Positions 7,972 to 58,909 of a DNA stretch of 64,000 bases are shown here, piece after piece; within the stretch, counting starts at the first letter, position 1, and each line of letters begins with the position of its first letter. The translations under genes and the position numbers were made by a program. This DNA comes from Escherichia coli (GTDB lineage Bacteria; Pseudomonadota; Gammaproteobacteria; Enterobacterales; Enterobacteriaceae), in the NCBI RefSeq assembly GCF_003018255.1, contig NZ_CP027440.1; one strand, given 5' to 3'. A model generated the notes under the pieces. It was not told the origin of the DNA. It ran no database searches and saw only the letters and a program-made list of their open reading frames with translations.

Positions 7972-8152
7972 AAGAAATCCTTTCTTAGAGAATTATTGAG
8001 GCCCGGTATCATACCGACTGCAACAATGAAATAAGAGCAAACGAAGAAACTTTCAGAATTAGGCCCGGCGGCGCAGAAAATTTTGCTATTCGCCTCGCAA
8101 GAACGGAGAGCCGTCGATTGACACTAAGGGCGGAGTGACATAATTTCAGGAG

Positions 8153-8300
8153 TGAGGGTTAGGGAGAGGTTTCCCCCTCCCCCTGGTGTTCTTAGTAAGC
8201 CTGGAAGCTAATCACTAAGAGTATCACCAGTATGATGACGTGCTTCATCATAACCCTTTCCTTATTAAAAGCCCTCTTCTCCGGGAGAGGGTTTCCCGTT
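8153..8300 (+). ncRNA. sibA: Sib antisense RNA antitoxin, copy 1 (boundaries approximate)
   Basis: Plus-strand -35 ttgaca 8118-8123, 17 bp spacer, -10 taattt 8141-8146; transcript fully covers ibs ORF; hairpin plus T tract near 8268-8303. Confidence 0.55.
8192..8251 (-). CDS. ibsA: Ibs type I toxin, 19 aa hydrophobic peptide (MMKHVIILVILLVISFQAY)
   Basis: Reverse complement of 8192..8251 reads ATGATGAAGCACGTCATCATACTGGTGATACTCTTAGTGATTAGCTTCCAGGCTTACTAA; SD-like ggaaaggg upstream. Confidence 0.8.
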   Translation of the reverse strand: MMKHVIILVILLVISFQAY

Positions 8301-8487
8301 TCAGCGTCCCGCTGAAATCGTCGGCTTACCTCCTTTCGCCCTGAATGCAGTCTATCGCTAACGCGTGAACAAAATAGTTTCCTCTGTGATTATTGCGTAA
8401 CGACTCGCAAAGAATATTTGCTGGCAGGATCGCAGACTACAAAGCCTGCGGATTGACAATCTTATCGTGAAGGCATAATTTCAGGAG

Positions 8488-8630
8488 TGAGGGTAGAGCG
8501 GGGTTTCCCCCGCCCTGGTAGTCTTAGTAAGCTGGCCAGCTAATAACTAAGAGCACCACGATGATGAGTAGCTTCATCATGACCCTTTCCTTATTTAAGG
8601 CCCCTTCCTCGGGAGGGGCTTTCCCGTTTC
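8488..8630 (+). ncRNA. sibB: Sib antisense RNA antitoxin, copy 2 (approximate)
   Basis: ttgaca 8453-8458, 17 bp spacer, taattt 8476-8481; hairpin ggccccttcctcgggaggggct followed by ttcccgtttc. Confidence 0.55.
8524..8580 (-). CDS. ibsB: Ibs type I toxin, 18 aa (MMKLLIIVVLLVISWPAY)
   Basis: Reverse complement of 8524..8580 gives ATGATGAAGCTACTCATCATCGTGGTGCTCTTAGTTATTAGCTGGCCAGCTTACTAA. Confidence 0.8.
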   Translation of the reverse strand: MMKLLIIVVLLVISWPAY

Positions 8631-8815
8631 AGCGTCCCGCTGAAATCGGCGGCCTACCTCCTTTCGCCATGCAAGCAGTCTATCGCTAACTTGCAGATAA
8701 AATAGTTTCACATGTGATTATTGCGTAACGTCTCGCAAAGAATATTTGCTGGCAGGATCGCAGACTACAAAGCCTGCGGATTGACAATCTAATTGTGAAG
8801 GCATACTTTCAGGAG

Positions 8816-8957
8816 TGAGGGTAGAGCGGGGTTTCCCCCGCCCTGGTAGTCTTAGTAAGCCGGGAAGCTTATGACTAAGAGCACCACGATGATGATCCAC
8901 TTCATCATGACCCTTTCCTTATTTAAGGCCCCTTCCTCGGGAGGGGCTTTCCCGTTT
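8816..8957 (+). ncRNA. Sib-family antisense RNA, copy 3 (approximate)
   Basis: ttgaca 8781-8786, 17 bp spacer, -10-like tacttt 8804-8809; terminator hairpin ending near 8957. Confidence 0.5.
8852..8908 (-). CDS. Ibs-family type I toxin, 18 aa (MMKWIIIVVLLVISFPAY)
   Basis: Reverse complement of 8852..8908 gives ATGATGAAGTGGATCATCATCGTGGTGCTCTTAGTCATAAGCTTCCCGGCTTACTAA. Confidence 0.75.
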   Translation of the reverse strand: MMKWIIIVVLLVISFPAY

Positions 8958-9143
8958 CAGCGTCCCGCTGAAATCATCGGCTTACCTCCTTTCGCCCTGA
9001 ATGCAGTCTATCGCTGACTTGCGGATAAAATAGTTTCACATGTGATTATTGCGTGACGTCTCGCAAAGAATATTTGCTGGCAGGATCGCAGACTGCAAAG
9101 CCTGCGGATTGACAATCGGACCGTGAAGGCATACTTTCAGGAG

Positions 9144-9287
9144 TGAGGGTAGAGCGGGGTTTCCCCCGCCCTGGTAGTCTTAGTAAGCTGGGTAGCTAAC
9201 GACTAAGAGCACCACGATGATGAGTATCTTCATCATGACCCTTTCCTTATTTAAGGCCCCTTCCTCGGGAGGGGCTTGCCCGTTTCA
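9144..9287 (+). ncRNA. Sib-family antisense RNA, copy 4 (approximate)
   Basis: ttgaca 9109-9114, 17 bp spacer, tacttt 9132-9137; terminator hairpin ending near 9286. Confidence 0.5.
9180..9236 (-). CDS. Ibs-family type I toxin, 18 aa (MMKILIIVVLLVVSYPAY)
   Basis: Reverse complement of 9180..9236 gives ATGATGAAGATACTCATCATCGTGGTGCTCTTAGTCGTTAGCTACCCAGCTTACTAA. Confidence 0.75.
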   Translation of the reverse strand: MMKILIIVVLLVVSYPAY

Positions 9288-22529: not shown

Positions 22530-22613
22530 TTAATTTCGATTATTTTTCCCGGATGGAAAATTCTTAGAAACCGATCACATACAGCTGCATTTATTAAGGT
22601 TATCATCCGTTTC

Positions 22614-22700
22614 GCTGAAAAACATAACCCATAAAATGCTAGCTGTACCAGGAACCACCTCCTTAGCCTGTGTAATCTCCCTTACACGGGCTTATTTTTT
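22614..22700 (+). ncRNA. cyaR: CyaR (RyeE) Hfq-dependent small RNA
   Basis: Sequence gctgaaaaacataacccataaaatgctagctgtaccaggaaccacctccttagcctgtgtaatctcccttacacgggcttatttttt matches CyaR as recalled, including terminator hairpin and U tract. Confidence 0.85.
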
Positions 22701-35610: not shown

Positions 35611-36330
35611 ATCGCTGCGACAGTGGCTGATGCTGTACTCAATAGGCCGTTGCTGTTGGTCAAGCGCCACTTGCTTGATCACCAGCACCGGTATTTTGCT
35701 ATCTAACTGAATATGTGACTGAAACTCGGCATCCGGCATCCGGGCGCTAACGCGGGAACGCGTACGTTGTGGGTAAATGTGCTGGCTGCGGAAGTAGTCA
35801 TAAAGAGAAATCCCGATGGCATCAACATCATGAATTAAATGTGCCGGAACCCACGATTCCTCAATCGATACCGCCTCTTCATCGACATAGCGAATACGCT
35901 TAAGCAAAAAGACATCACTTCCCGCTTCGACCGCCAGCTGCTGCGCGACTTCTTCGGGACATTTCACGACACGCTTGTTAACCCATAACGTATCGGGCTT
36001 TTTCCCGCGCAATACCACCTGCTGAGAAAACCCCCGCGCTTCTTTCAGCGAGTATTCGAAGATGTTGTTGATCTGCGTGCCGTAACCACGCGAACGCGTC
36101 ACCACGCCCTCTTCTTCCAGCGACTGCATCGCCTTGCGCACCGTAATGCGCGAAACGCCGGTTAACTGACTTAAATCACGCTCACCGGGCAAAATATTGC
36201 CATGCTCCAGCACCCCGCTGCGCACGGCATTTTTTACCGTTTCGGCAAACTTAATATAAAGCGGCGTGTTATCCGCCGCTAAAATACGCTCGTTCAGTTG
36301 GGCAATCAGCTGGGTATGCGCTTGTTCCAT
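35584..36330 (-). CDS. yegW: GntR-family (HutC subfamily) transcriptional regulator YegW
   Basis: 248 aa; N-terminal winged HTH and UTRA-like C-terminus. Confidence 0.8.
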   Translation of the reverse strand: MEQAHTQLIAQLNERILAADNTPLYIKFAETVKNAVRSGVLEHGNILPGERDLSQLTGVSRITVRKAMQSLEEEGVVTRSRGYGTQINNIFEYSLKEARGFSQQVVLRGKKPDTLWVNKRVVKCPEEVAQQLAVEAGSDVFLLKRIRYVDEEAVSIEESWVPAHLIHDVDAIGISLYDYFRSQHIYPQRTRSRVSARMPDAEFQSHIQLDSKIPVLVIKQVALDQQQRPIEYSISHCRSDLYVFVCEE

Positions 36331-36381
36331 TTGTCTTTTTCCTGCCGGGGAATCTGGTGGGAGTATATCACTGCTTCTTAT

Positions 36382-37209
36382 TTAAGGCGTTTCTTTAATC
36401 CCATCAACGAATGCCTGCAACTCCTCCACCGTGCCATTAAACACATTAAAATCCACCGGACCATTAATGCCATCGACCTGTCCACGGTCGGAATGCTGCC
36501 AGAAGCGCCAGGCCATGCCGTCATTGTCCGGGCGACGTTGATAATAGTGAGCCACCCACCACGGATATTCATTGAAATAGCCCGCCAGATTGGTGTGATA
36601 AAAAACGGCTCCTGAGTAAATAATTGGCTTTTTACCCGTACGTTTTTCGACCATTTTTAGCCACTGACTTACCCGCTTGCGTAATTCTTTTGCCGATAAT
36701 TTTCCCCGTTCTTCTACGTCCAGCACGGCAGGGAAATCGCCTTGTGAGAAATCCACCGTTTGCAGAAATAATCTCGCCTGAACTGAAGCAGATACCGACG
36801 GGGAAAAATAATGATACGCCCCGCGCAGCAGGCCATTTTCGCGGCTTAGTTGCCAGTTACGCGAAAAATAGGGGTCCACCAGCTTTTCGCCTTCCGTCGC
36901 CTTAATAAAAGCAAACTGTAAGCGGATACCGTTGTCGCGCATTTTTGCCACACGCTGCCAGTCGATCCGCTCCTGCCAGCGTGAAACATCTATTCCGTGA
37001 ATGGTGTAACTGGCAGGAATGCGAATAGCGAAAGATTTAACCGGGCGATAACCGTAGAAGTGGATGTAGTCTTTAATCTGAATTGCTGTCGAATAGAAAA
37101 AATTCACCGTCTGACGCGGATAAATTGCAACGATGGAAATTAGCCCAAGAGCGCATAATAAAACGGTGAATTTTTTTCGACTGGTGATTCTCAACTGCAT
37201 TGGTTTCAT
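36382..37209 (-). CDS. yegX: Glycoside hydrolase family 25 (lysozyme-like) protein YegX
   Basis: 275 aa; N-terminal signal/anchor (FTVLLCALGLISIVAIY) followed by GH25-like domain (GIDVSRWQERIDW...). Confidence 0.7.
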   Translation of the reverse strand: MKPMQLRITSRKKFTVLLCALGLISIVAIYPRQTVNFFYSTAIQIKDYIHFYGYRPVKSFAIRIPASYTIHGIDVSRWQERIDWQRVAKMRDNGIRLQFAFIKATEGEKLVDPYFSRNWQLSRENGLLRGAYHYFSPSVSASVQARLFLQTVDFSQGDFPAVLDVEERGKLSAKELRKRVSQWLKMVEKRTGKKPIIYSGAVFYHTNLAGYFNEYPWWVAHYYQRRPDNDGMAWRFWQHSDRGQVDGINGPVDFNVFNGTVEELQAFVDGIKETP

Positions 37210-37264
37210 CCCTGAATGTCAGCACCAAAGGCTGACAATAACCAAAGCAGCTATAGTACGGTGC

Positions 37265-38065
37265 TCACCACCAGGCGTGGAAGTGGTGAACCGGACCAAT
37301 ACCGTGACCAACTTCCAGCGTGTCGGCCTGGGCTAATGCCGATGAAAGCCAGCTTTTTGCCTCCTGTACGGTGTCAGCCCAGTTTGTATGGCGCGGGCGT
37401 AGTGCAGCCAACGCCGCAGAGAGCGTACAACCAGTGCCGTGGGTGTTTTTGGTCATAATGCGCGGTGCAGTAAATCGTTGTTCCCCCTCACGAGTAAACA
37501 GCCAGTCCGGGCTTTGCTCATCATCCAGATGACCACCTTTCATTAGCACTGCGCCACAGCCCATCACCAACAGCGATCGCCCTTGTTCCAGCATTTCCTG
37601 TTCGGTGCGCGCGTGTGGCGCGTCGAGCAAGGCGGCTGCTTCGGGCAAGTTTGGCGTTATTAATGAAACATGTGGCAATAATCGACTGCGCAGCGTAGCA
37701 ACCGCCGAAGGTGAAAGCAGCGGGTCGCCGCTTTTTGCCAGCATAACGGTGTCGAGTACCACGTTTTGGATCTGATAACGTTGCAACCGTTCTGCCACCG
37801 CTTCAACAATATCGGTTTCCGCCAACATACCGATTTTAGTGGTGTCGATTCGCACATCACTGAACACCGAATCGAGCTGGGCGGCGACAAAATCAGGCTC
37901 AATGCGATACACCGACTGTACACCACGGGTATTTTGCGCCACCAGTGCAGTAATAACTGAGCAACCATAAGCGCCAAGTGCCGAGAAGGTTTTAAGATCG
38001 GCCTGAATCCCCGCACCACCACTCGGATCAGTACCGGCAATCGTCAGAGCGTTAATTCGTTTCAT
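37265..38065 (-). CDS. thiD: Hydroxymethylpyrimidine/phosphomethylpyrimidine kinase
   Basis: 266 aa ORF recognised as ThiD; overlaps thiM stop. Confidence 0.9.
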
Positions 38066-38850
38066 GCCTGCACCTCCTGCGTCAATTGCCAGAGCGCATC
38101 AAGGAAATGTGGAACAAAACTGCCTGGCCCCTCGCTTCTGGCAACTGCGCGTTCTCCGGCTTGTTTCATCCAGTGACAGGCAGATGCGATATTTTCCAGC
38201 GTATCGCCTGGTAGCGCACAACAGGCAGCGACAACCGCCGATAGTGCACAGCCAGTTCCTACCACTTTGGCCATTAGCGGATCGCCACCGTGAATGCCAA
38301 CGGTGCGACGACCATCGGTAACATAATCCACCTCGCCAGTGACCACGACGATTGCGCCAGTTTCCCGTGCCAGTGTTTGTGCAGCGGGTATCGCATTAGC
38401 TGCGGCGTCAGTGGTATCCACTCCCCGTCCACCATTAGCAACGCCAGCTAATGCCATGATTTCCGAAGCATTACCACGTATGGCGGTTGGCTTATGGGAC
38501 AGAAGTTCCACACAAAAACGGCGGCGATAATCGAGCGCACCAACCGCAACCGGATCAAGCGTCCAGGGCGTTTGTGATCGTGTTGCTTGCTCAACGGCAG
38601 CACTCATCGCTTGCGCTCGTGGCTGCGTCAGTGTGCCAACGTTAATCAGCAACGCACTGGCGATAGCCGCAAACTGACTGGCTTCTTCGGTTTCGATAAC
38701 CATCGCTGGCGATGCACCGAGCGCCAGCAAGGTATTGGCAGTAAAGGTTTGCACCACATCGTTGGTCATACAGTGCACAAGAGGGGAATGTTGGTGAAAA
38801 AGGTGTAACGCGTGCGCAGATTGCGCTGAACTCAGCAGGTCGACTTGCAT
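38062..38850 (-). CDS. thiM: Hydroxyethylthiazole kinase
   Basis: 262 aa ORF recognised as ThiM. Confidence 0.9.
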
Positions 38851-38859
38851 AGTTTGCTC

Positions 38860-38975
38860 CTGCCATAACGTGAAGAAGCAATGACCTGGTGGTCCGTGAC
38901 TTCCCTACGCTGGCATTATCCAGATCAGGTGATACGGGTATTTCTCAGCCTTCACAAAGAAGGGCACCCCGAGTC
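38860..38975 (-). promoter_or_regulatory. TPP (THI-box) riboswitch in thiMD leader
   Basis: Minus-strand sequence ...ctcggggtgcccttct...ctgagaaatacccgtatcacctgatctggataatgccagcgtagggaagtcacggacc... matches the thiM thi-box aptamer as recalled. Confidence 0.85.
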
Positions 38976-39072
38976 GTTTGGTTGCGATAATAAATCGCAG
39001 AGGAGGATGGTAATGTCCAGCGCACGCGTTGTAAACGGGGAAAAACGGCGGTATTACAATCGCGTTAATAAA

Positions 39073-39345
39073 TTATTTGATATAAGAATCCAGCACCTTC
39101 AGAACGACATCCAGATCTTCTTCACGTTTTAGCTCATCCCCCTGGTGAACGATGTGTTCCGTCAGATGGCCTTTAATCACTTCCCGCATCAGACCGTTTA
39201 CCGCGCCACGGATAGCAGCAATCTGTTGTAAAACTGCAGCGCATTCATGCGGTTCGTCGAGCATTTTCTTGAGCGCCACGACCTGGCCCTGAATCTTACT
39301 GGCACGCGCTTTCAGTTTCTGTTTATCACGGATTGTATGAGACAT
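39073..39345 (-). CDS. rcnR: Ni/Co-responsive transcriptional repressor RcnR
   Basis: 90 aa ORF recognised as RcnR (CsoR/RcnR family). Confidence 0.9.
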
Positions 39346-39392
39346 GGCAACACCTGGTTAACAAGAATATGAAAAATCATAGCACTATTAAT

Positions 39393-39428
39393 CTACTGGG
39401 GGGTAGTATAAGGTACTGGGGGGGAGTA
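39393..39428. promoter_or_regulatory. Two tandem RcnR operator sites (TACT-G6/7-N-AGTA) in rcnR-rcnA intergenic region
   Basis: tactggggggtagta (39393-39407) and tactgggggggagta (39414-39428), G-tract-centred inverted repeats. Confidence 0.75.
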
Positions 39429-39465
39429 GAATCAGATTGCCGAATTAATACTAAGAATTATTATC

Positions 39466-40290
39466 ATGACCGAATTTACAACACTTCTTCAGCAAGGAAA
39501 CGCCTGGTTCTTCATCCCCAGCGCCATCTTACTTGGTGCGCTTCATGGCCTGGAACCGGGGCACTCAAAAACGATGATGGCGGCGTTTATCATCGCCATC
39601 AAAGGCACCATTAAACAGGCGGTGATGCTCGGACTGGCAGCAACTATTTCGCATACCGCAGTGGTCTGGTTAATTGCCTTTGGCGGGATGGTGATCAGCA
39701 AACGCTTTACTGCTCAATCAGCAGAACCGTGGCTCCAGTTGATTTCCGCAGTGATCATTATTAGCACCGCGTTCTGGATGTTCTGGCGTACCTGGCGCGG
39801 CGAACGCAACTGGCTGGAGAATATGCACGAGCATGATCATGAGCATCATCACCACGATCACGAAGATCACCACGACCATGGACATCATCACCATCACGAA
39901 CATGGCGAGTATCAGGATGCCCATGCACGAGCCCATGCCAATGACATTAAACGACGCTTTGATGGTAGAGAGGTCACCAACTGGCAAATTTTGCTATTTG
40001 GCTTAACCGGTGGCCTTATCCCCTGCCCGGCAGCAATTACCGTGCTGTTGATTTGCATTCAGTTGAAAGCCCTGACACTGGGCGCAACACTGGTCGTCAG
40101 TTTCAGCCTCGGCCTGGCGTTAACGCTTGTCACCGTAGGCGTTGGCGCAGCAATCAGCGTTCAGCAGGTCGCAAAACGCTGGAGCGGATTTAACACTCTC
40201 GCTAAACGCGCTCCCTATTTTTCCAGTCTGTTGATTGGCTTAGTTGGTGTGTATATGGGCGTACATGGCTTCATGGGCATAATGCGATAA
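39466..40290 (+). CDS. rcnA: Ni/Co efflux protein RcnA
   Basis: 274 aa membrane protein with His-rich cytoplasmic loop (HEHDHEHHHHDHEDHHDHGHHHHHEHGEYQDAHARAH). Confidence 0.9.
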   Translation: MTEFTTLLQQGNAWFFIPSAILLGALHGLEPGHSKTMMAAFIIAIKGTIKQAVMLGLAATISHTAVVWLIAFGGMVISKRFTAQSAEPWLQLISAVIIISTAFWMFWRTWRGERNWLENMHEHDHEHHHHDHEDHHDHGHHHHHEHGEYQDAHARAHANDIKRRFDGREVTNWQILLFGLTGGLIPCPAAITVLLICIQLKALTLGATLVVSFSLGLALTLVTVGVGAAISVQQVAKRWSGFNTLAKRAPYFSSLLIGLVGVYMGVHGFMGIMR

Positions 40291-40508
40291 CTCAATCCTT
40301 TAGGCTTGCATGTTATCTTCAGCCCAGGATGATTCTTAAATCAGCTATTTCCGCTGACTCTCTGCTCGCTAAGGATGCTTTTAGGGCATCCTTTCATTTA
40401 CACTTTTTACGAAATCATGGGATCACTAACAAAATATCGCTTGTCAGTTATATTGTATGGCAGGAAAGATATGCGACTGATATTACAGATCCCCAAAGTG
40501 GAGAGTTT

Positions 40509-40847
40509 ATGACCATTAAAAATAAGATGTTGCTGGGTGCGCTTTTGCTGGTTACCAGTGCCGCCTGGGCCGCACCAGCCACCGCGGGTTCGACCAATAC
40601 CTCGGGAATTTCTAAGTATGAGTTAAGCAGTTTCATTGCTGACTTTAAGCATTTCAAACCAGGTGACACCGTCCCAGAGATGTACCGCACCGATGAGTAC
40701 AACATTAAGCAGTGGCAGTTACGTAACCTGCCCGCGCCTGATGCCGGGACGCACTGGACCTATATGGGTGGCGCGTACGTGTTGATCAGCGACACCGACG
40801 GTAAAATCATTAAAGCCTACGACGGTGAGATTTTTTATCATCGCTAA
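40509..40847 (+). CDS. rcnB: Periplasmic Ni/Co homeostasis protein RcnB (YohN)
   Basis: ORF 40329..40847; start placed at ATG 40509 (MTIKNKMLLGALLLVTSAAWA signal peptide, 112 aa). Confidence 0.8.
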   Translation: MTIKNKMLLGALLLVTSAAWAAPATAGSTNTSGISKYELSSFIADFKHFKPGDTVPEMYRTDEYNIKQWQLRNLPAPDAGTHWTYMGGAYVLISDTDGKIIKAYDGEIFYHR

Positions 40848-40873
40848 AAAAAAGCCCCCTCGGAGAGAGGGGG
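40845..40873 (-). terminator. Rho-independent terminator downstream of yehA
   Basis: GC hairpin gccccctcggagagagggggg with adjacent A run on the plus strand (U tract on the minus strand). Confidence 0.6.
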
Positions 40874-40928
40874 GAATGCAGACACCTTAATATTTTTATT
40901 ATTAGCCACTTGCTCGTCTTGCTTGTTA

Positions 40929-41963
40929 TTAGTCGTATTTCACGTTGATTAATGCGGTTGCCTCCAGTGCGCCAGATTTAACTTTGTTTGTATCGTAGAC
41001 GTAGTAACTGGCCGTTATCGGAATTGAAACCGTTGTATCTGTAAGTTTTGACTTTGCCGCAATTTCTTTTAAATTTGTATATCCTTTACTGCTGTTAGTG
41101 ATATTTAAAAGTGTGACTGGCGTACCATTACTTTCAAGAATAAATCCTACGCCATTATCTTCCGCACCTTTCAGGATCGTGTTGCTGTTGGTTAACAAGT
41201 CAGAACTTGATAAATACACCTGCATTTTCCGTGATGTTTGATTTTGTTGACCTAATAAATTTTTACAACGCAGAATAATATCCCCTTTTTTACTATTTAT
41301 TGTTGTTTTGTTACCTGTGGCTGGTAATTGTGAAACGGGAATACTCTCTAACGTAATTAATAAATCGTCCGGTTTGCAGGTTGTGGTTATCGGGTTGTAT
41401 GACAATGTCAGATTAAAGGAATAGACACCTGCATTTTGTGCCAATGCATTTCTGTAGCTATTTACACATGCATCCCATGACTTACCACCTAATAAACACA
41501 GTAGAAATTGTACTGCGGCACTCCCGCGTGTCGATGATGAAGCACTGGATAATGTCGCAACTCCATTAATCATCACTGAACCACCGCCCCCCGCAGAAAC
41601 ATTCACTTTTGCATTACTGGCCGCAGGTGTCACCGTCACCGAATAACCACTGGTGAAACTGGTCTGATTATTTGACAACGTAATGTTGTTTTTATTGGTC
41701 CATTCAAAATGTAAATTTAATTTAATGGTATCGTTATAAAGTCCAACAATAATATCCGACGGGCTCATAGGTGTGATAGTATTTGTACTCACGCATGACG
41801 AATCATTAAAATTATGCTCATATGTCGCCATTTGTGTTTGAGTAAGTGCAAAATCCCCCTGAACAACCAAATTGTGCTGAACAGATAACTCACTATAACA
41901 TGCCGCATAGCTCACAGGCATAACCATCATCATTACTATAAATAGCATTATGCGAATTTCCAT
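40929..41963 (-). CDS. yehA: Fimbrial adhesin-like protein YehA
   Basis: 344 aa, signal peptide, Thr/Ser-rich; last gene of chaperone-usher operon. Confidence 0.8.
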   Translation of the reverse strand: MEIRIMLFIVMMMVMPVSYAACYSELSVQHNLVVQGDFALTQTQMATYEHNFNDSSCVSTNTITPMSPSDIIVGLYNDTIKLNLHFEWTNKNNITLSNNQTSFTSGYSVTVTPAASNAKVNVSAGGGGSVMINGVATLSSASSSTRGSAAVQFLLCLLGGKSWDACVNSYRNALAQNAGVYSFNLTLSYNPITTTCKPDDLLITLESIPVSQLPATGNKTTINSKKGDIILRCKNLLGQQNQTSRKMQVYLSSSDLLTNSNTILKGAEDNGVGFILESNGTPVTLLNITNSSKGYTNLKEIAAKSKLTDTTVSIPITASYYVYDTNKVKSGALEATALINVKYD

Positions 41964-41978
41964 AGAACCACCTGACTA

Positions 41979-44474
41979 TTACTGGCAAATATAATTTCTA
42001 CTTTCATCAATCTCTTTACCGAAGGTGATTGTGCATGAAAGCCCTTGTTGCTTATCAATTGCCACATTAACCGATGGCGGTACTTCATTGGTGCGAATAA
42101 ATAACTGGCTTCCCTGGCCGACAACACCAATATTATGACCATGGATATCATTGACTTCATAACCAAACGTTAATGGTTGCCCATCCGCTCTTAACGCTTT
42201 TATAAACCATGGCTTGCGCTGATCGGTATCAAAATTAACCAGTACAACCGCGCCGCGATAAGGGGCGGCAATTTTCCGGTTGCCACGTAATTCTGCTTCG
42301 CTATCGCTTTGTGACACATCCAACATCAGGTAATTTTCCCGATAAGGTGTCATTCCGTCGTATACCACCACTCCATTACGGTTTGTTGTGCGATATTTTT
42401 GCCCATTGACATAAGCATCTTTAATTCCTGGCGCATTCATCACAGCAAACGTTTCAGAAAGACGGTTTGCCAGATTAACGCCACCCGACCAGGCGACAAT
42501 GCCCCCTGAAACACTGGCTCCAGCCTGTCGATAAGCACTCGACTGACTATAACTGCCATTCACTGTCGCAACCGGCGCGTTCCAGGTTAAATTCGCCCCA
42601 GCTGTCGTTTCATTTCCCTGATACTGATAACTCAGGTTGACCCCATAGTTAAACTGATCCCGGCTTCCAACGGTTCCTGATAATCCCGTATTATTTGAGG
42701 CAACCCCCTGATCATCAAACGTCGTTGAGTTAGACATATATATTTGCCGACGAGGCGTCGTAACGTCATCACCCCAATCAAAGGGAATCGATATAAAAAT
42801 ATTAAAACGTTTCTCTTCATGATGATTCTCGTCATAAGCATGGCTTGCCGCGAGGGTATAGCTTATCCTTCGCAGGTTGTTGGAATAACTCAACTGATAA
42901 TCCTTACTGCTGCCGCTACGCCCCCAGTAATCTCGCCATAACGTACTTAAGGACACAGAACCCCAGCCTTCTGGCAATGACTGACTCATATTGGCAGAGA
43001 AGCTATTTTTACGGCCAAAATCGTTCTGGTAATAATCGGCAATGTCATAGATATCGTTTTCATCACGGCGATAATTATCTTTATTGTTTGCCCATACGTG
43101 ATCATTAAATGTCCGATAATCACGCGACGAATAACGCCAGGCCGCCAGACCAAAACGTGTCGACGTTTGGCTCACAAATTTGTTGTAGGCAATTTGATAA
43201 CTTTGCCCGTCAAACACATCGCCGTTGTCTTGTTTACTATGCGACTTCGTGGCATCGACGGAAATGGCACCAATGCGTGTATTCCAGCCAGTCCCCAAAG
43301 TGAACGCGTAATAATTATTCGCGACCATCGAGCCACCATACAGCGTTAATAAGTTATTAAAACCATACTGATGACCCGCCTGGACAAAATCACTTTGTTT
43401 GCTCGCCCCTTCAATATGGCTACGACCCGCCGCAAAATCATATTTCGACACGCCGGGTTGCAGCATATTTGGTACCGCTGCATAAGGCACCAGATAGGTG
43501 GTTACCGAACCGTCCGCCTCTTTCACGCTGACATCAAGATCTGCTCCACCTCCGGCCAACTGCAAATCTGTAATCGCAAACGGGCCAGGAGGAACCTCTT
43601 TCTGATAAACCACAAAACCATTCTGTTCAATAGTTACCAGCGCGTTACTCTGAGCAATCCCCTGCACCCGTGGCGTAAAATTTTGTTTCGAGTTAGGCAA
43701 CATCTGCATATCACGAAACAACCGCACACCGCTGAAGCGAACAGAATCAAAAATATCGCTTGATGTGTACATATCACCCACACGAAGCGTGCCGAGAAGT
43801 TGGGCAAATCCACGTTCCAGATACAGGGTATTGCTTTTCCACACCCCTGGATTGTTATTTGTTTTACTGAAACTGGCATCAGAATGCAGTTGCCACCCCT
43901 GTAAATTTAACCCGCTGTTAAAACGTACATATGTACTCTTGCTATTACCCGACGCTTTATAGTCGCTGTAATACTGACTCACATAATAAGAGGTATAAAA
44001 CGCATTAATACCCCGCTCCCAGTTTTCCGGTGGAACATAGCCACTTTCCAGTTCTTCCACCCACGCCTGCGGGACACTGAAATCGAGACGAAAAACTCCG
44101 ATATCCCAGGTATAGCTCCCACCCTGAACAAGTTGCTCAAATGTTAAACATTGCTTACCGCTGGCAAAGTTATCGGTATTAATGCCTAACCGCTTGATAA
44201 TTTCCCTTGATAAACATGTTTCTTGCGGGTTGTCTTTAACAATAATCTCATATTTCCCGCGCCATTGCTTATTGACATAAATATCGATGTCATACTGCCC
44301 CGGCAAGGGTTGATTATCATCAAGACGAATATTTGCAACCTGCTGGTCTTTCATTCCACCTATCATGAAATGGGTATCAAAGGTTTCTTCAGCTGCATAA
44401 GCTTCAATGCCGAGCAATAACGCTACGATTGCTGATGCAAGTGGGGTCATTCTCAACATAGGCAGCTCCTGCAA
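41979..44474 (-). CDS. yehB: Fimbrial outer-membrane usher YehB
   Basis: 831 aa ORF, signal peptide, usher-family architecture (true start may be a downstream in-frame ATG). Confidence 0.85.
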   Translation of the reverse strand: MQELPMLRMTPLASAIVALLLGIEAYAAEETFDTHFMIGGMKDQQVANIRLDDNQPLPGQYDIDIYVNKQWRGKYEIIVKDNPQETCLSREIIKRLGINTDNFASGKQCLTFEQLVQGGSYTWDIGVFRLDFSVPQAWVEELESGYVPPENWERGINAFYTSYYVSQYYSDYKASGNSKSTYVRFNSGLNLQGWQLHSDASFSKTNNNPGVWKSNTLYLERGFAQLLGTLRVGDMYTSSDIFDSVRFSGVRLFRDMQMLPNSKQNFTPRVQGIAQSNALVTIEQNGFVVYQKEVPPGPFAITDLQLAGGGADLDVSVKEADGSVTTYLVPYAAVPNMLQPGVSKYDFAAGRSHIEGASKQSDFVQAGHQYGFNNLLTLYGGSMVANNYYAFTLGTGWNTRIGAISVDATKSHSKQDNGDVFDGQSYQIAYNKFVSQTSTRFGLAAWRYSSRDYRTFNDHVWANNKDNYRRDENDIYDIADYYQNDFGRKNSFSANMSQSLPEGWGSVSLSTLWRDYWGRSGSSKDYQLSYSNNLRRISYTLAASHAYDENHHEEKRFNIFISIPFDWGDDVTTPRRQIYMSNSTTFDDQGVASNNTGLSGTVGSRDQFNYGVNLSYQYQGNETTAGANLTWNAPVATVNGSYSQSSAYRQAGASVSGGIVAWSGGVNLANRLSETFAVMNAPGIKDAYVNGQKYRTTNRNGVVVYDGMTPYRENYLMLDVSQSDSEAELRGNRKIAAPYRGAVVLVNFDTDQRKPWFIKALRADGQPLTFGYEVNDIHGHNIGVVGQGSQLFIRTNEVPPSVNVAIDKQQGLSCTITFGKEIDESRNYICQ

Positions 44475-57889: not shown

Positions 57890-57979
57890 TTACTTCAACA
57901 AATCAATCAACCGTAACAGAGCCACTAATAGCTCCAGTACAGCAATGAGCACGGTTAACTTTTGTGTCAGCGTGTCCAT
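57890..57979 (-). CDS. zorO: ZorO type I toxin, 29 aa (MDTLTQKLTVLIAVLELLVALLRLIDLLK)
   Basis: Reverse complement of 57890..57979: SD aaggagag, ATGGACACGCTGACACAAAAG...TTGAAGTAA; matches ZorO as recalled. Confidence 0.85.
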   Translation of the reverse strand: MDTLTQKLTVLIAVLELLVALLRLIDLLK

Positions 57980-58217: not shown

Positions 58218-58304
58218 GTTGAGATGCCATGTTGCACTATCAGTAACTTAACATCAAAGTAGTAAATAAAAGAACCTGCCTCACCAGCAGGTTCTTTTAT
58301 TTTC
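58218..58304 (+). ncRNA. orzO: OrzO small RNA antitoxin (approximate ends)
   Basis: Starts about 7 nt after tataat; contains gccatgttgcact complementary to the zorO 5' UTR (plus-strand coordinates about 58060-58073); terminator aaagaacctgcctcaccagcaggttctttt plus T tract. Confidence 0.65.
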
Positions 58305-58497: not shown

Positions 58498-58587
58498 TTA
58501 CTTCAACAAATCAATCAACCGTAACAGAGCCACTAATAGCTCCAGTACAGCAATGAGCACGGTTAACTTTTGTGTCAGCGTGTCCAT
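58498..58587 (-). CDS. zorP: ZorP type I toxin, second copy, 29 aa
   Basis: Reverse complement of 58498..58587 encodes a peptide identical or near-identical to ZorO, with the same SD. Confidence 0.8.
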   Translation of the reverse strand: MDTLTQKLTVLIAVLELLVALLRLIDLLK

Positions 58588-58825: not shown

Positions 58826-58909
58826 GTTGGTACGAAATGTTGCACAATCAGCAAGTTAGCGTCATTGTAGTAAATAAAAGAACCTGCCTCACCAGCAGGT
58901 TTTTTTATT
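58826..58909 (+). ncRNA. orzP: OrzP small RNA antitoxin (approximate ends)
   Basis: Contains ttggtacgaaatgttgcac, imperfectly matching gttggtacgaaacgttgc in the zorP leader; terminator aaaagaacctgcctcaccagcaggttttttt. Confidence 0.6.

What the first reader, a model, noticed from the sequence alone, without database searches (positions are those of the whole stretch)
38860..38975. TPP riboswitch upstream of thiMD
The minus-strand leader of thiM contains the conserved thi-box aptamer sequence (ctgagaaatacccgtatcacctgatctggataatgccagcgtagggaagtcacggacc). The expression platform is expected to sequester the thiM SD. This is well established and listed for completeness.
Basis: established knowledge. 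Interest (0 to 1): 0.2.

Follow-up and report, generated by a model that had tools for sequence, protein, structure and literature searches.

The report
E. coli thiM TPP riboswitch, intact
This is the well-studied vitamin-B1 (TPP) sensing RNA switch in front of the E. coli thiM-thiD genes, intact and essentially identical to the laboratory-strain version, so the finding is correct but ordinary.

Summary
Confirmed and already known. Rfam's TPP model (RF00059) hits window 38981-38885 on the minus strand at 71.2 bits (gathering score 54.3, E 4.7e-13). It is the only TPP hit in the 64 kb, and RefSeq annotates the same span as a TPP riboswitch. It lies between rcnR and thiM-thiD. From 38988 to the start codon it matches E. 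coli K-12 except for two adjacent bases in the P3 apical loop (38957-38956, UU for GC). That variant is exact in 874 of 5407 E. coli genomes, and UUUGU is the commonest loop among 21 enterobacterial thiM leaders.

Published element positions map exactly: anti-anti-SD GAAG 38903-38900, anti-SD CUUC 38878-38875, SD GGAG 38860-38857, AUG 38850-38848. Folding with the aptamer enforced buries the SD (P unpaired 0.00 against 0.65 free). The C-rich Rho-loading stretch in early thiM is kept. The best mechanism is therefore the published one: TPP binding blocks translation, and Rho-dependent termination follows.

Side observation, not in this window: in other E. coli genomes two unrelated integrase-bearing elements insert inside this aptamer. 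One carries an aptamer mimic that rebuilds a full-scoring riboswitch in front of thiM. I found no description of this in the searchable literature.

The parts
39007..39035 (-). Putative thiM promoter: -35-like TTTACA (39035-39030), 17-nt spacer, -10-like TACCAT (39012-39007). The TSS is inferred at about 39000.
   Evidence: Consensus scan only (9 of 12 matches). The TSS position is inferred from Bastet et al. numbering (AUG = nt 151-153, PMC5499598), which puts +1 seven nt downstream of the -10-like hexamer. Not tested here.
38983..38999 (-). 5'-terminal hairpin of the leader (UGCGAU / AUCGCA, 5-nt loop), upstream of the aptamer.
   Evidence: Predicted in both free and constrained folds of the window and of K-12. 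The one K-12 difference here (38989) lies in the loop. Function not tested.
38885..38981 (-). TPP aptamer as delimited by Rfam and RefSeq. The core runs from P1-5' to P1-3', 38975-38898. P1 is 38975-38972 with 38901-38898. P2 is 38971-38968 with 38938-38935. P3 is 38965-38959 with 38953-38948. P4 is 38929-38926 with 38907-38904. P5 is 38923-38920 with 38913-38910.
   Evidence: cmscan 71.2 bits. The identical span is annotated 'TPP riboswitch' in RefSeq NZ_CP027452.1. P3 shows compensatory changes across genera.
38943..38948 (-). thi-box CUGAGA (J3-2, the pyrimidine-sensing side of the aptamer).
   Evidence: Read directly. Invariant in 21 enterobacterial thiM leaders, although CUGAGA was part of the pattern used to retrieve them.
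38956..38957 (-). The only differences from K-12 inside the aptamer: UU instead of GC in the P3 apical loop (published nt 29-30).
   Evidence: Alignment with MG1655. The 62-nt stretch with UU is exact in 874 of 5407 E. coli genomes. The loop is the most variable part of the aptamer across genera, and UUUGU is the commonest state. The P3 residue of the L5-P3 contact (C24 = 38962; PMC2018614) is unchanged.
38900..38903 (-). Anti-anti-SD GAAG (published nt 83-86). It is shared with P1-3', so it is free only when the aptamer is unfolded.
   Evidence: Coordinate mapping nt n = 38986 - n from PMC2018614 and PMC1920254. In the free MFE fold it pairs with the anti-SD.
38883..38894 (-). Linker hairpin GACC/GGUC with an ACCA loop (38890-38887, published A96-A99). 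In longer transcripts CAGGUC 38888-38883 can instead pair with GACCUG 38841-38836 in the ORF.
   Evidence: Folds. The ACCA loop was probed in PMC1920254. The helix is poorly conserved at alignment level (64.9% of cells paired).
38871..38881 (-). Anti-SD arm (P8 5' strand), with core CUUC at 38878-38875.
   Evidence: Constrained folds. CUUCU paired with AGGAG is kept in 19-21 of 21 leaders.
38854..38865 (-). SD arm (P8 3' strand). The SD GGAG is at 38860-38857.
   Evidence: Bastet's RBS mutant G142C corresponds to window 38859.
38829..38850 (-). Start codon AUG (38850-38848) and the first ~23 nt of the thiM ORF, which form part of the expression platform. One difference from K-12 at 38832 (A for G; Ser for Gly at codon 7).
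   Evidence: PMC5499598 states that residues 151-172 belong to the platform. Predicted OFF-state energy is identical to K-12, -51.3 kcal/mol.
38739..38810 (-). Rho-dependent termination module inside early thiM. It has a C-rich, G-poor stretch (nt 191-225 = 38810-38776; published Rho-protected nt 201-210 = 38800-38791), a hairpin (nt 224-251 = 38777-38750), and published stop sites 231, 237 and 262 (38770, 38764, 38739).
   Evidence: Coordinates transferred from PMC5499598. C is 36% and G 4-8% in 25-nt windows, the same as K-12. The window's C231U (38770) turns a G-C pair of the hairpin into G-U, giving -8.7 against -13.6 kcal/mol. Termination itself was not tested here.
38062..38850 (-). thiM, hydroxyethylthiazole kinase (262 aa), the regulated gene.
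   Evidence: TIGR00694 331.8 bits, cutoff 256.4. RefSeq annotation.
37265..38065 (-). thiD, HMP/HMP-P kinase (266 aa), the second gene of the operon, overlapping thiM by 4 nt.
   Evidence: TIGR00097 360.5 bits, cutoff 204.95. RefSeq annotation.
38905..38945 (-). Stretch of the aptamer used as an attachment site by integrative elements in other E. coli genomes; the site is empty in this window. The type B 14-nt repeat AGAAATACCCGTAT is 38945-38932. The type A crossover lies within 38930-38905.
   Evidence: Junction alignments and blastn. Junction counts.

Best explanation
[quoted passage not shown] At low TPP, the 3' half of the aptamer, including GAAG 38903-38900, pairs with the anti-SD arm (CUUC 38878-38875). 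The SD GGAG 38860-38857 stays free, and thiM and thiD are translated. When TPP binds, helices P1-P5 lock. GAAG is drawn into P1, and the freed anti-SD pairs with the SD in an 11-bp helix, reinforced by pairing between the linker and the first codons, so ribosomes cannot initiate. The untranslated early ORF then exposes a C-rich stretch (about 38810-38776) where Rho loads. Rho terminates transcription around 38770-38739, which lowers thiMD mRNA. Shown here: family membership, identity with the studied K-12 sequence, and mutually exclusive pairings that bury the SD only when the aptamer is formed. Taken from the literature on the nearly identical K-12 sequence: TPP binding, SD protection and Rho dependence.
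For: Rfam TPP hit of 71.2 bits against a gathering score of 54.3, full model length, and the only TPP hit in the window. RefSeq annotates the same span as a riboswitch in a genome 100% identical over 301 nt. thiM and thiD are identified downstream. The leader matches K-12 from 38988 to the AUG except for two P3-loop bases. Constrained folding gives SD P(unpaired) 0.00 with the aptamer formed and 0.62-0.65 free, with the same OFF energy as K-12. The SD/anti-SD core is conserved in 19-21 of 21 enterobacterial thiM leaders while flanking pairs drift, and P3 has compensatory changes. No intrinsic-terminator-like site lies in the leader. Published element positions map exactly onto the window (PMC2018614 and PMC1920254). 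Rho dependence, the rut site and the stop sites come from PMC5499598, and the C-rich, G-poor composition is kept.
Against: Nothing contradicts it. Caveats follow. Whole-leader MFE is not more stable than shuffles (z = -0.55), as expected for a bistable RNA. Thermodynamic folds of thiM leaders from other genera do not all show a clean ON/OFF contrast. P1, P2, P4 and P5 were invariant in my set, so they gave no covariation evidence of their own, and P4/P5 were fixed by the retrieval pattern. The window's C231U weakens the ORF hairpin near the Rho stop sites, with unknown effect. TPP binding and regulation were not measured for this allele.
Confidence: 0.95

Rival explanations
1. It is purely a translational switch. 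TPP controls only SD accessibility, and mRNA level and Rho play no part.
For: My folds explain SD masking without any other factor. A 6-codon translational fusion is already TPP-repressed (PMC5499598).
Against: PMC5499598 reports that transcriptional fusions with at least 34 codons are TPP-repressed, that bicyclomycin abolishes this, and that Rho stops transcription at nt 231, 237 and 262 in vitro. The C-rich, G-poor region is intact in the window.
Confidence: 0.04
2. It is a transcription-attenuating riboswitch that forms an intrinsic terminator in the leader, as many Gram-positive TPP riboswitches do.
For: This design is common for the family in Bacillus and related genera (general knowledge).
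Against: No terminator-like hairpin with a U tract lies between 39400 and 38700 on either strand. The sequence after the aptamer runs straight into the SD and AUG within 50 nt.
Confidence: 0.005
3. It is a chance or decayed thi-box-like sequence with no regulatory role in this strain.
For: None beyond the fact that function was not assayed for this allele.
Against: E 5e-12 for the whole window. A contiguous copy covering at least 80% of a 131-nt query is present in 5337 of 5424 matching E. coli genomes. The only aptamer differences from the functional K-12 sequence are two loop bases, and that loop varies freely across genera.
Confidence: 0.005

Closest known systems
E. coli K-12 thiM TPP riboswitch (Rfam RF00059; aptamer crystal structure and probing studies cited in PMC2018614 and PMC1920254; Rho coupling in PMC5499598)
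   Same: Same locus (rcnR - leader - thiM - thiD). Same aptamer, linker, anti-SD, SD and start codon, base for base from 38988 to 38848 apart from two bases. Same C-rich early-ORF composition.
   Different: UU instead of GC in the P3 apical loop (38957-38956). U for C in the loop of the 5' hairpin (38989). Within the first 300 transcript nt, four ORF substitutions (38832, 38770, 38761, 38740). Of these, 38832 changes Gly7 to Ser within the ORF part of the platform, and 38770 weakens the hairpin at a published Rho stop site. All are natural polymorphisms, and none alters the predicted switch.
E. coli thiC and tbpA (thiB) TPP riboswitches
   Same: Same Rfam family and ligand, and translational control coupled to effects on mRNA level (PMC5234074 and PMC11487190, from the listing).
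   Different: Different operons and different expression platforms. thiM lacks the P3a extension: the 11 consensus positions between CUGAGA and ACCC are deleted in the cmscan alignment. Neither is in this window.
Gene-restoring integrative elements, such as tRNA/tmRNA-targeting integrases and the dusA-specific integrases (PMC4482086, title and abstract only). This is relevant only to the side observation.
   Same: The type A element carries a copy of the 5' part of its target, so integration rebuilds an intact target next to the downstream gene.
   Different: The target is a riboswitch aptamer in a 5' UTR rather than a tRNA or a protein-coding gene. I found no report of this in the searchable literature. 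The window holds the unoccupied site.

Membership tests
TPP riboswitch (Rfam RF00059, THI element) | Covariance-model score at or above the curated gathering score over the full model | tested here: met
   71.2 bits against 54.3, model positions 1-105, not truncated. Still the only TPP hit at gathering threshold in the 64-kb window.
TPP riboswitch (Rfam RF00059, THI element) | Three-way junction: P1 closing two arms, P2-P3 (pyrimidine sensor) and P4-P5 (pyrophosphate sensor) | tested here: met
   All helices are formed by standard pairs in the window (pair list). The cmscan structure line shows only three non-standard positions. P3 has compensatory changes in other genera. P1, P2, P4 and P5 were invariant in my set and so uninformative.
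TPP riboswitch (Rfam RF00059, THI element) | Conserved thi-box sequence (CUGAGA ... ACCUGAUCUGGAUAAUGCCAGCGUAGGGAA) | tested here: met
   Present at 38948-38901.
TPP riboswitch (Rfam RF00059, THI element) | Location in the 5' leader of a thiamine biosynthesis, salvage or transport gene, on the same strand | tested here: met
   The Rfam aptamer span ends 34 nt upstream of the thiM AUG on the minus strand, and thiD follows.
TPP riboswitch (Rfam RF00059, THI element) | Specific binding of thiamine pyrophosphate | not testable with these tools
   Inferred. The aptamer differs from the K-12 RNA used in published binding and structure studies (PMC2018614, PMC1920254) only at two apical-loop bases of P3, away from the ligand pockets and from the L5-P3 contact residue C24.
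Translational OFF riboswitch with SD sequestration (the thiM expression-platform model) | Mutually exclusive pairings: the anti-SD pairs with the aptamer 3' half (ON) or with the SD (OFF) | tested here: met
   The free MFE fold pairs 38880-38863 with 38915-38891. With the aptamer enforced, 38881-38871 pairs with 38865-38854. SD P(unpaired) is 0.62-0.65 and then 0.00. Positions equal the published nt 83-86, 108-111 and 126-129. This is computational only.
Riboswitch with indirect Rho-dependent termination (thiM model of PMC5499598) | C-rich, G-poor Rho-loading region and a downstream hairpin within codons ~9-34, with bicyclomycin-sensitive repression | tested here: inconclusive
   Composition is conserved (C 36%, G 4-8% at nt 191-225). 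The hairpin is present but weakened by C231U, -8.7 against -13.6 kcal/mol. Rho dependence itself cannot be tested with these tools.

The most novel reading that the evidence does not exclude
The conserved core of this aptamer also serves as a chromosomal attachment site for mobile elements. In other E. coli genomes, two unrelated tyrosine-integrase elements are inserted inside it. Type B is a ~16-kb tail-less island resembling a capsid-forming PICI, with a 14-nt repeat at 38945-38932. It decapitates the riboswitch, leaving a thiM-side copy that scores 36.9 bits. Type A is a ~9-11-kb island whose crossover lies within 38930-38905. It carries its own mimic of the 5' ~70 nt of the aptamer, so integration rebuilds a full-scoring riboswitch (75.0 bits) on thiM. 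It also leaves the native thiM promoter plus a crippled aptamer (53.3 bits) 87 nt upstream of its integrase gene. If the rebuilt switch works and the element is mobile, this would be target restoration at a riboswitch, possibly with vitamin-dependent integrase expression. The window itself holds only the empty site.
Probability: 0.45. Interest if true: 0.5.

Novelty: already known. Interest (0 to 1): 0.13.

Why it matters
For the window itself it matters little. It confirms a textbook regulatory element and fixes its parts to exact coordinates, which helps annotation. It also shows that the common UU variant of the P3 loop is a neutral polymorphism. The side observation could matter more. A riboswitch aptamer used as an integration site by two unrelated integrases, one of which rebuilds the aptamer, would extend the 'target-restoring attP' idea from tRNA and protein genes to cis-regulatory RNAs. 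It would also offer natural chimeric riboswitches for study.

Tried and rejected
(1) Whole-leader MFE significance: z = -0.55 against shuffles. This is uninformative for a bistable RNA, so I replaced it with constrained folding.

(2) Alignment-column covariation for the aptamer: P1, P2, P4 and P5 were invariant in the 21 leaders, and P4/P5 were fixed by my retrieval pattern. Only P3 and the outer P8 pairs carried information.

(3) Per-species thermodynamic ON/OFF contrast: it was clean only for Escherichia-type leaders (window, E. albertii, L101). Other genera often mask the SD with a different upstream arm, or the folds are ambiguous. I did not pursue whether platform design truly differs between genera.

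(4) Intrinsic terminator in the leader, or between rcnR and the thiM promoter: none found.

(5) A weak mir-598 hit at 39832-39901 (21.2 bits against a gathering score of 69). I rejected it as a chance match to the His-codon repeat inside rcnA.

(6) My first reading of a single 41-nt att core was wrong. It came from comparing the left junction of one element with the right junction of another, and one search corrected it.

(7) Searches of the phage collection with the 41-nt stretch and with the type A element arm plus aptamer mimic found nothing.

(8) Four literature searches for thiM or a riboswitch as an integration site found nothing relevant. One apparent hit was an author surname.

(9) No promoter-like site was found upstream of the element-borne aptamer in PSS-07, so how thiM is transcribed there remains open.

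Full report
OBSERVATION. An Rfam scan of 36000-42000 at permissive thresholds gives one real hit. It is TPP (RF00059) at 38981-38885 on the minus strand, 71.2 bits against a gathering score of 54.3, E 4.7e-13, covering model positions 1-105 without truncation. At gathering thresholds over the whole 64 kb it is the only TPP hit, with E 5e-12.

IDENTITY AND CONTEXT. The ORF that starts 34 nt after the Rfam span is ThiM (38850-38062; TIGR00694 331.8 bits). The next ORF, overlapping it by 4 nt, is ThiD (38065-37265; TIGR00097 360.5 bits). Upstream on the same strand is rcnR (39345-39073), and rcnA is divergent. A 301-nt query across the site matches 5424 of 5426 complete E. coli genomes. In a genome that is 100% identical, RefSeq annotates a 'TPP riboswitch' feature that maps to window 38981-38885.

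Against K-12 MG1655, the leader is identical from 38988 to the start codon except for two adjacent bases, 38957-38956, which read UU instead of GC. These are published nt 29-30, in the apical loop of P3. The 62-nt stretch with UU is exact in 874 of 5407 genomes. Among 21 enterobacterial thiM leaders this loop is the most variable part of the aptamer, and UUUGU is the commonest state, while K-12's UGCGU is the rarer one. The P3 residue that receives the L5 contact (C24 = 38962; PMC2018614) is unchanged. I regard the variant as neutral.

ANATOMY. Two published numbering systems map cleanly onto the window. In the Winkler/Serganov system, nt n equals window 38986 - n:
- anti-anti-SD, nt 83-86: GAAG at 38903-38900
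- probed loop A96-A99: ACCA at 38890-38887
- anti-SD, nt 108-111: CUUC at 38878-38875
- SD, nt 126-129: GGAG at 38860-38857

These assignments come from PMC2018614 and PMC1920254 and agree with the sequence. In the Bastet system, nt n equals 39001 - n, because their start-codon mutant is U152A and their RBS mutant is G142C. That places +1 at about 39000, seven nt downstream of a -10-like TACCAT (39012-39007), which has a -35-like TTTACA 17 nt upstream of it. The promoter is a consensus match only. Helix coordinates are listed under 'parts'.

MECHANISM, WHAT I TESTED. With P1, P2, P4 and P5 enforced, the lowest-energy fold pairs 38881-38871 with 38865-38854. This is an 11-bp helix with one bulge that contains CUUC paired with GGAG. 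In transcripts reaching past codon 5, CAGGUC 38888-38883 also pairs with GACCUG 38841-38836, which encloses the start region. The probability that the SD is unpaired is then 0.00. Without the constraint, the anti-SD arm pairs with the 3' half of the aptamer (38915-38891), and the SD is unpaired with probability 0.62-0.65. The window and K-12 give the same OFF-state energy, -51.3 kcal/mol. No intrinsic-terminator-like site lies in or near the leader.

For an independent check I retrieved loci from a one-genome-per-species collection using a thi-box pattern. I kept the 20 enterobacterial loci where the aptamer lies directly upstream of a thiM homologue and aligned them with the window. Projecting the window's OFF structure onto that alignment gave these results:
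- The CUUCU/AGGAG core is paired in 19-21 of 21 sequences.
- The outer P8 pairs drift, and four of them change on both sides.
- P3 carries compensatory changes.
- 89.8% of cells are paired, against 35-59% when the 3' partners are slid by one to three columns.

P1, P2, P4 and P5 never vary in this set, and P4/P5 could not vary given my pattern, so they add nothing. Single-sequence folds of the other genera are mixed, so I do not claim that the platform design is identical outside Escherichia.

MECHANISM, WHAT I TAKE FROM THE LITERATURE. Chemical probing of the K-12 RNA showed that the SD is reactive without TPP and less reactive with it. It also showed that nt 71-86 pair with nt 108-125 in the free form (PMC1920254). 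PMC5499598 adds several results:
- A 6-codon translational fusion is TPP-repressed.
- Transcriptional fusions need at least 34 codons to be repressed.
- Bicyclomycin abolishes that repression.
- Rho protects nt 201-210 and stops transcription at nt 231, 237 and 262.
- The first 23 ORF nt belong to the platform.

In the window, the C-rich, G-poor stretch (nt 191-225 = 38810-38776; C 36%, G 4-8%) is unchanged from K-12. The hairpin at nt 224-251 (38777-38750) is kept but weakened from -13.6 to -8.7 kcal/mol, because C231U (38770) turns a G-C pair into G-U. Whether that matters is untested.

My best explanation is therefore the published two-layer one. TPP binding blocks translation initiation, and the resulting ribosome-free early ORF lets Rho terminate. 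I put 0.95 on it. The rivals are a purely translational switch, an intrinsic-terminator switch, and a non-functional relic. Each is addressed under Rival explanations.

COMPARISON AND NOVELTY. Every feature of the TPP family that can be tested in silico is met. Ligand binding is inferred from near-identity with the RNA that was crystallised and probed. This is the same element as the K-12 thiM riboswitch, so it is already known and of low interest in itself.

SIDE OBSERVATION. This is outside the window but concerns this exact sequence. With a 131-nt query spanning the aptamer, 87 of 5424 matching E. coli genomes lack a contiguous copy, and there are about 300 extra partial copies overall. Inspecting junctions showed two kinds of inserted element.

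Type B is seen in strains 10671 and O157 Al Ain. Its right-junction sequence occurs in 75 genomes. It is a ~16-kb island with a P4-like integrase (Arm-DNA-bind_3 plus Phage_integrase), a DUF927 primase-like gene, SSB and PerC. It then carries capsid, prohead protease, portal, head-closure, connector, HNH, TerS and TerL genes, but no tail genes. From my own knowledge, that gene content matches capsid-forming phage-inducible chromosomal islands. Its left junction keeps the native leader to 38932, and its right junction resumes at 38945, which gives a 14-nt repeat AGAAATACCCGTAT. The thiM-side copy lacks P1-5', P2-5' and P3 and scores only 36.9 bits. In 10671 a further insertion has replaced the thiM promoter.

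Type A is seen in strains PSS-07, XPFI_3_2, PI6 and ExPEC. Its left-junction sequence occurs in 31 genomes at 100% identity, plus three at about 79%. It is a ~9-11-kb island that begins 87 nt before a 452-aa tyrosine recombinase. That protein shows no significant similarity to the type B integrase. At its far end the island carries its own copy of the aptamer from P1-5' onward, which differs from the native one in the P3 loop (UUAAAU) and by C to U at 38931. Beyond 38905 the sequence continues as the native platform and thiM. The rebuilt aptamer scores 75.0 bits, and RefSeq annotates it as a riboswitch. The displaced native copy next to the integrase scores 53.3 bits, just under the gathering score. 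The crossover must lie within 38930-38905.

Several points stay open. I found no promoter-like site upstream of the rebuilt aptamer. Neither the attP arm nor the shared stretch matched anything in the phage collection. Four literature searches found no description. The type A genomes share identical island proteins, so they may represent a single old event in one lineage, and mobility is unproven. I therefore file this as a lead and not as a result. It is the basis of the 'novel case'.

VERDICT. The element is already known. Interest is 0.13.

Noticed in passing
window 38905-38945 (site empty here); L127, L124 (type B); L128, L129, L123, L125/L126 (type A): In other E. coli genomes two unrelated tyrosine-integrase elements are inserted inside this aptamer. 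Type B resembles a capsid-forming PICI and decapitates the riboswitch (14-nt repeat 38945-38932; right junction in 75 genomes). Type A carries an aptamer mimic and rebuilds a 75-bit riboswitch before thiM, leaving the native promoter and a 53-bit aptamer remnant 87 nt upstream of its integrase (left junction in 31 genomes). I found no report in the searchable literature.
   Followed up: partly
E. coli genome searches with window:38800-39100 and window:38860-38990: 697 of 5424 genomes cover less than 80% of the 301-nt query, but only 87 fail with the 131-nt aptamer query. So about 610 genomes break elsewhere, either in the rcnR-promoter spacer or in early thiM. In addition, the 131-nt query gives about 300 extra partial copies, of which the two element types explain only about 110. 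Neither excess was examined.
   Followed up: no
window 8118-9251 (+), with ORFs on the minus strand at 8251-8192, 8580-8524, 8908-8852, 9236-9180: Four tandem Sib antitoxin RNAs (RF00113, 137-150 bits), spaced about 328 nt apart. Each lies opposite an 18-19-aa Ibs-type hydrophobic toxin ORF. The same locus in strain ExPEC has two annotated ibs genes, so this window carries an expanded array.
   Followed up: partly
window 57890-57979 and 58498-58587 (-); 58225-58298 and 58833-58906 (+): Two tandem type I toxin-antitoxin modules. Each has an identical 29-aa ORF, MDTLTQKLTVLIAVLELLVALLRLIDLLK, which I recognise from memory as ZorO-like. Each lies divergent from an OrzO-P antitoxin RNA (RF02083, 90.2 and 88.9 bits).
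   Followed up: partly
window 22612-22697 (+): CyaR/RyeE sRNA (RF00112, 100.7 bits). An ordinary E. coli feature.
   Followed up: no
window 38770 and 38832 (-): Two natural differences from K-12 fall in functional parts of the thiM regulatory region. C231U lies at a published Rho stop site and weakens the ORF hairpin (-8.7 against -13.6 kcal/mol). G169A (Gly7Ser) lies in the ORF-embedded part of the expression platform. The predicted OFF-state energy is unchanged.
   Followed up: partly
window 39000-39073 (-): No intrinsic-terminator-like structure lies between the rcnR stop codon (39073) and the inferred thiM TSS (~39000). rcnR transcripts might therefore read through into the riboswitch leader. 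The fold of this spacer is not unusual (z = -1.38).
   Followed up: partly
alignment A3 (20 enterobacterial thiM leaders plus the window): Outside Escherichia, many thiM leaders seem to mask the SD with a different upstream arm (CCUG...CAGG), while the CUUCUU element stays nearly invariant. This suggests more than one platform design behind the same aptamer. It rests on thermodynamic predictions only.
   Followed up: partly
window 39832-39901 (-): Weak mir-598 match (21.2 bits against a gathering score of 69, E 0.87) inside the His-rich coding repeat of rcnA. A chance hit.
   Followed up: yes
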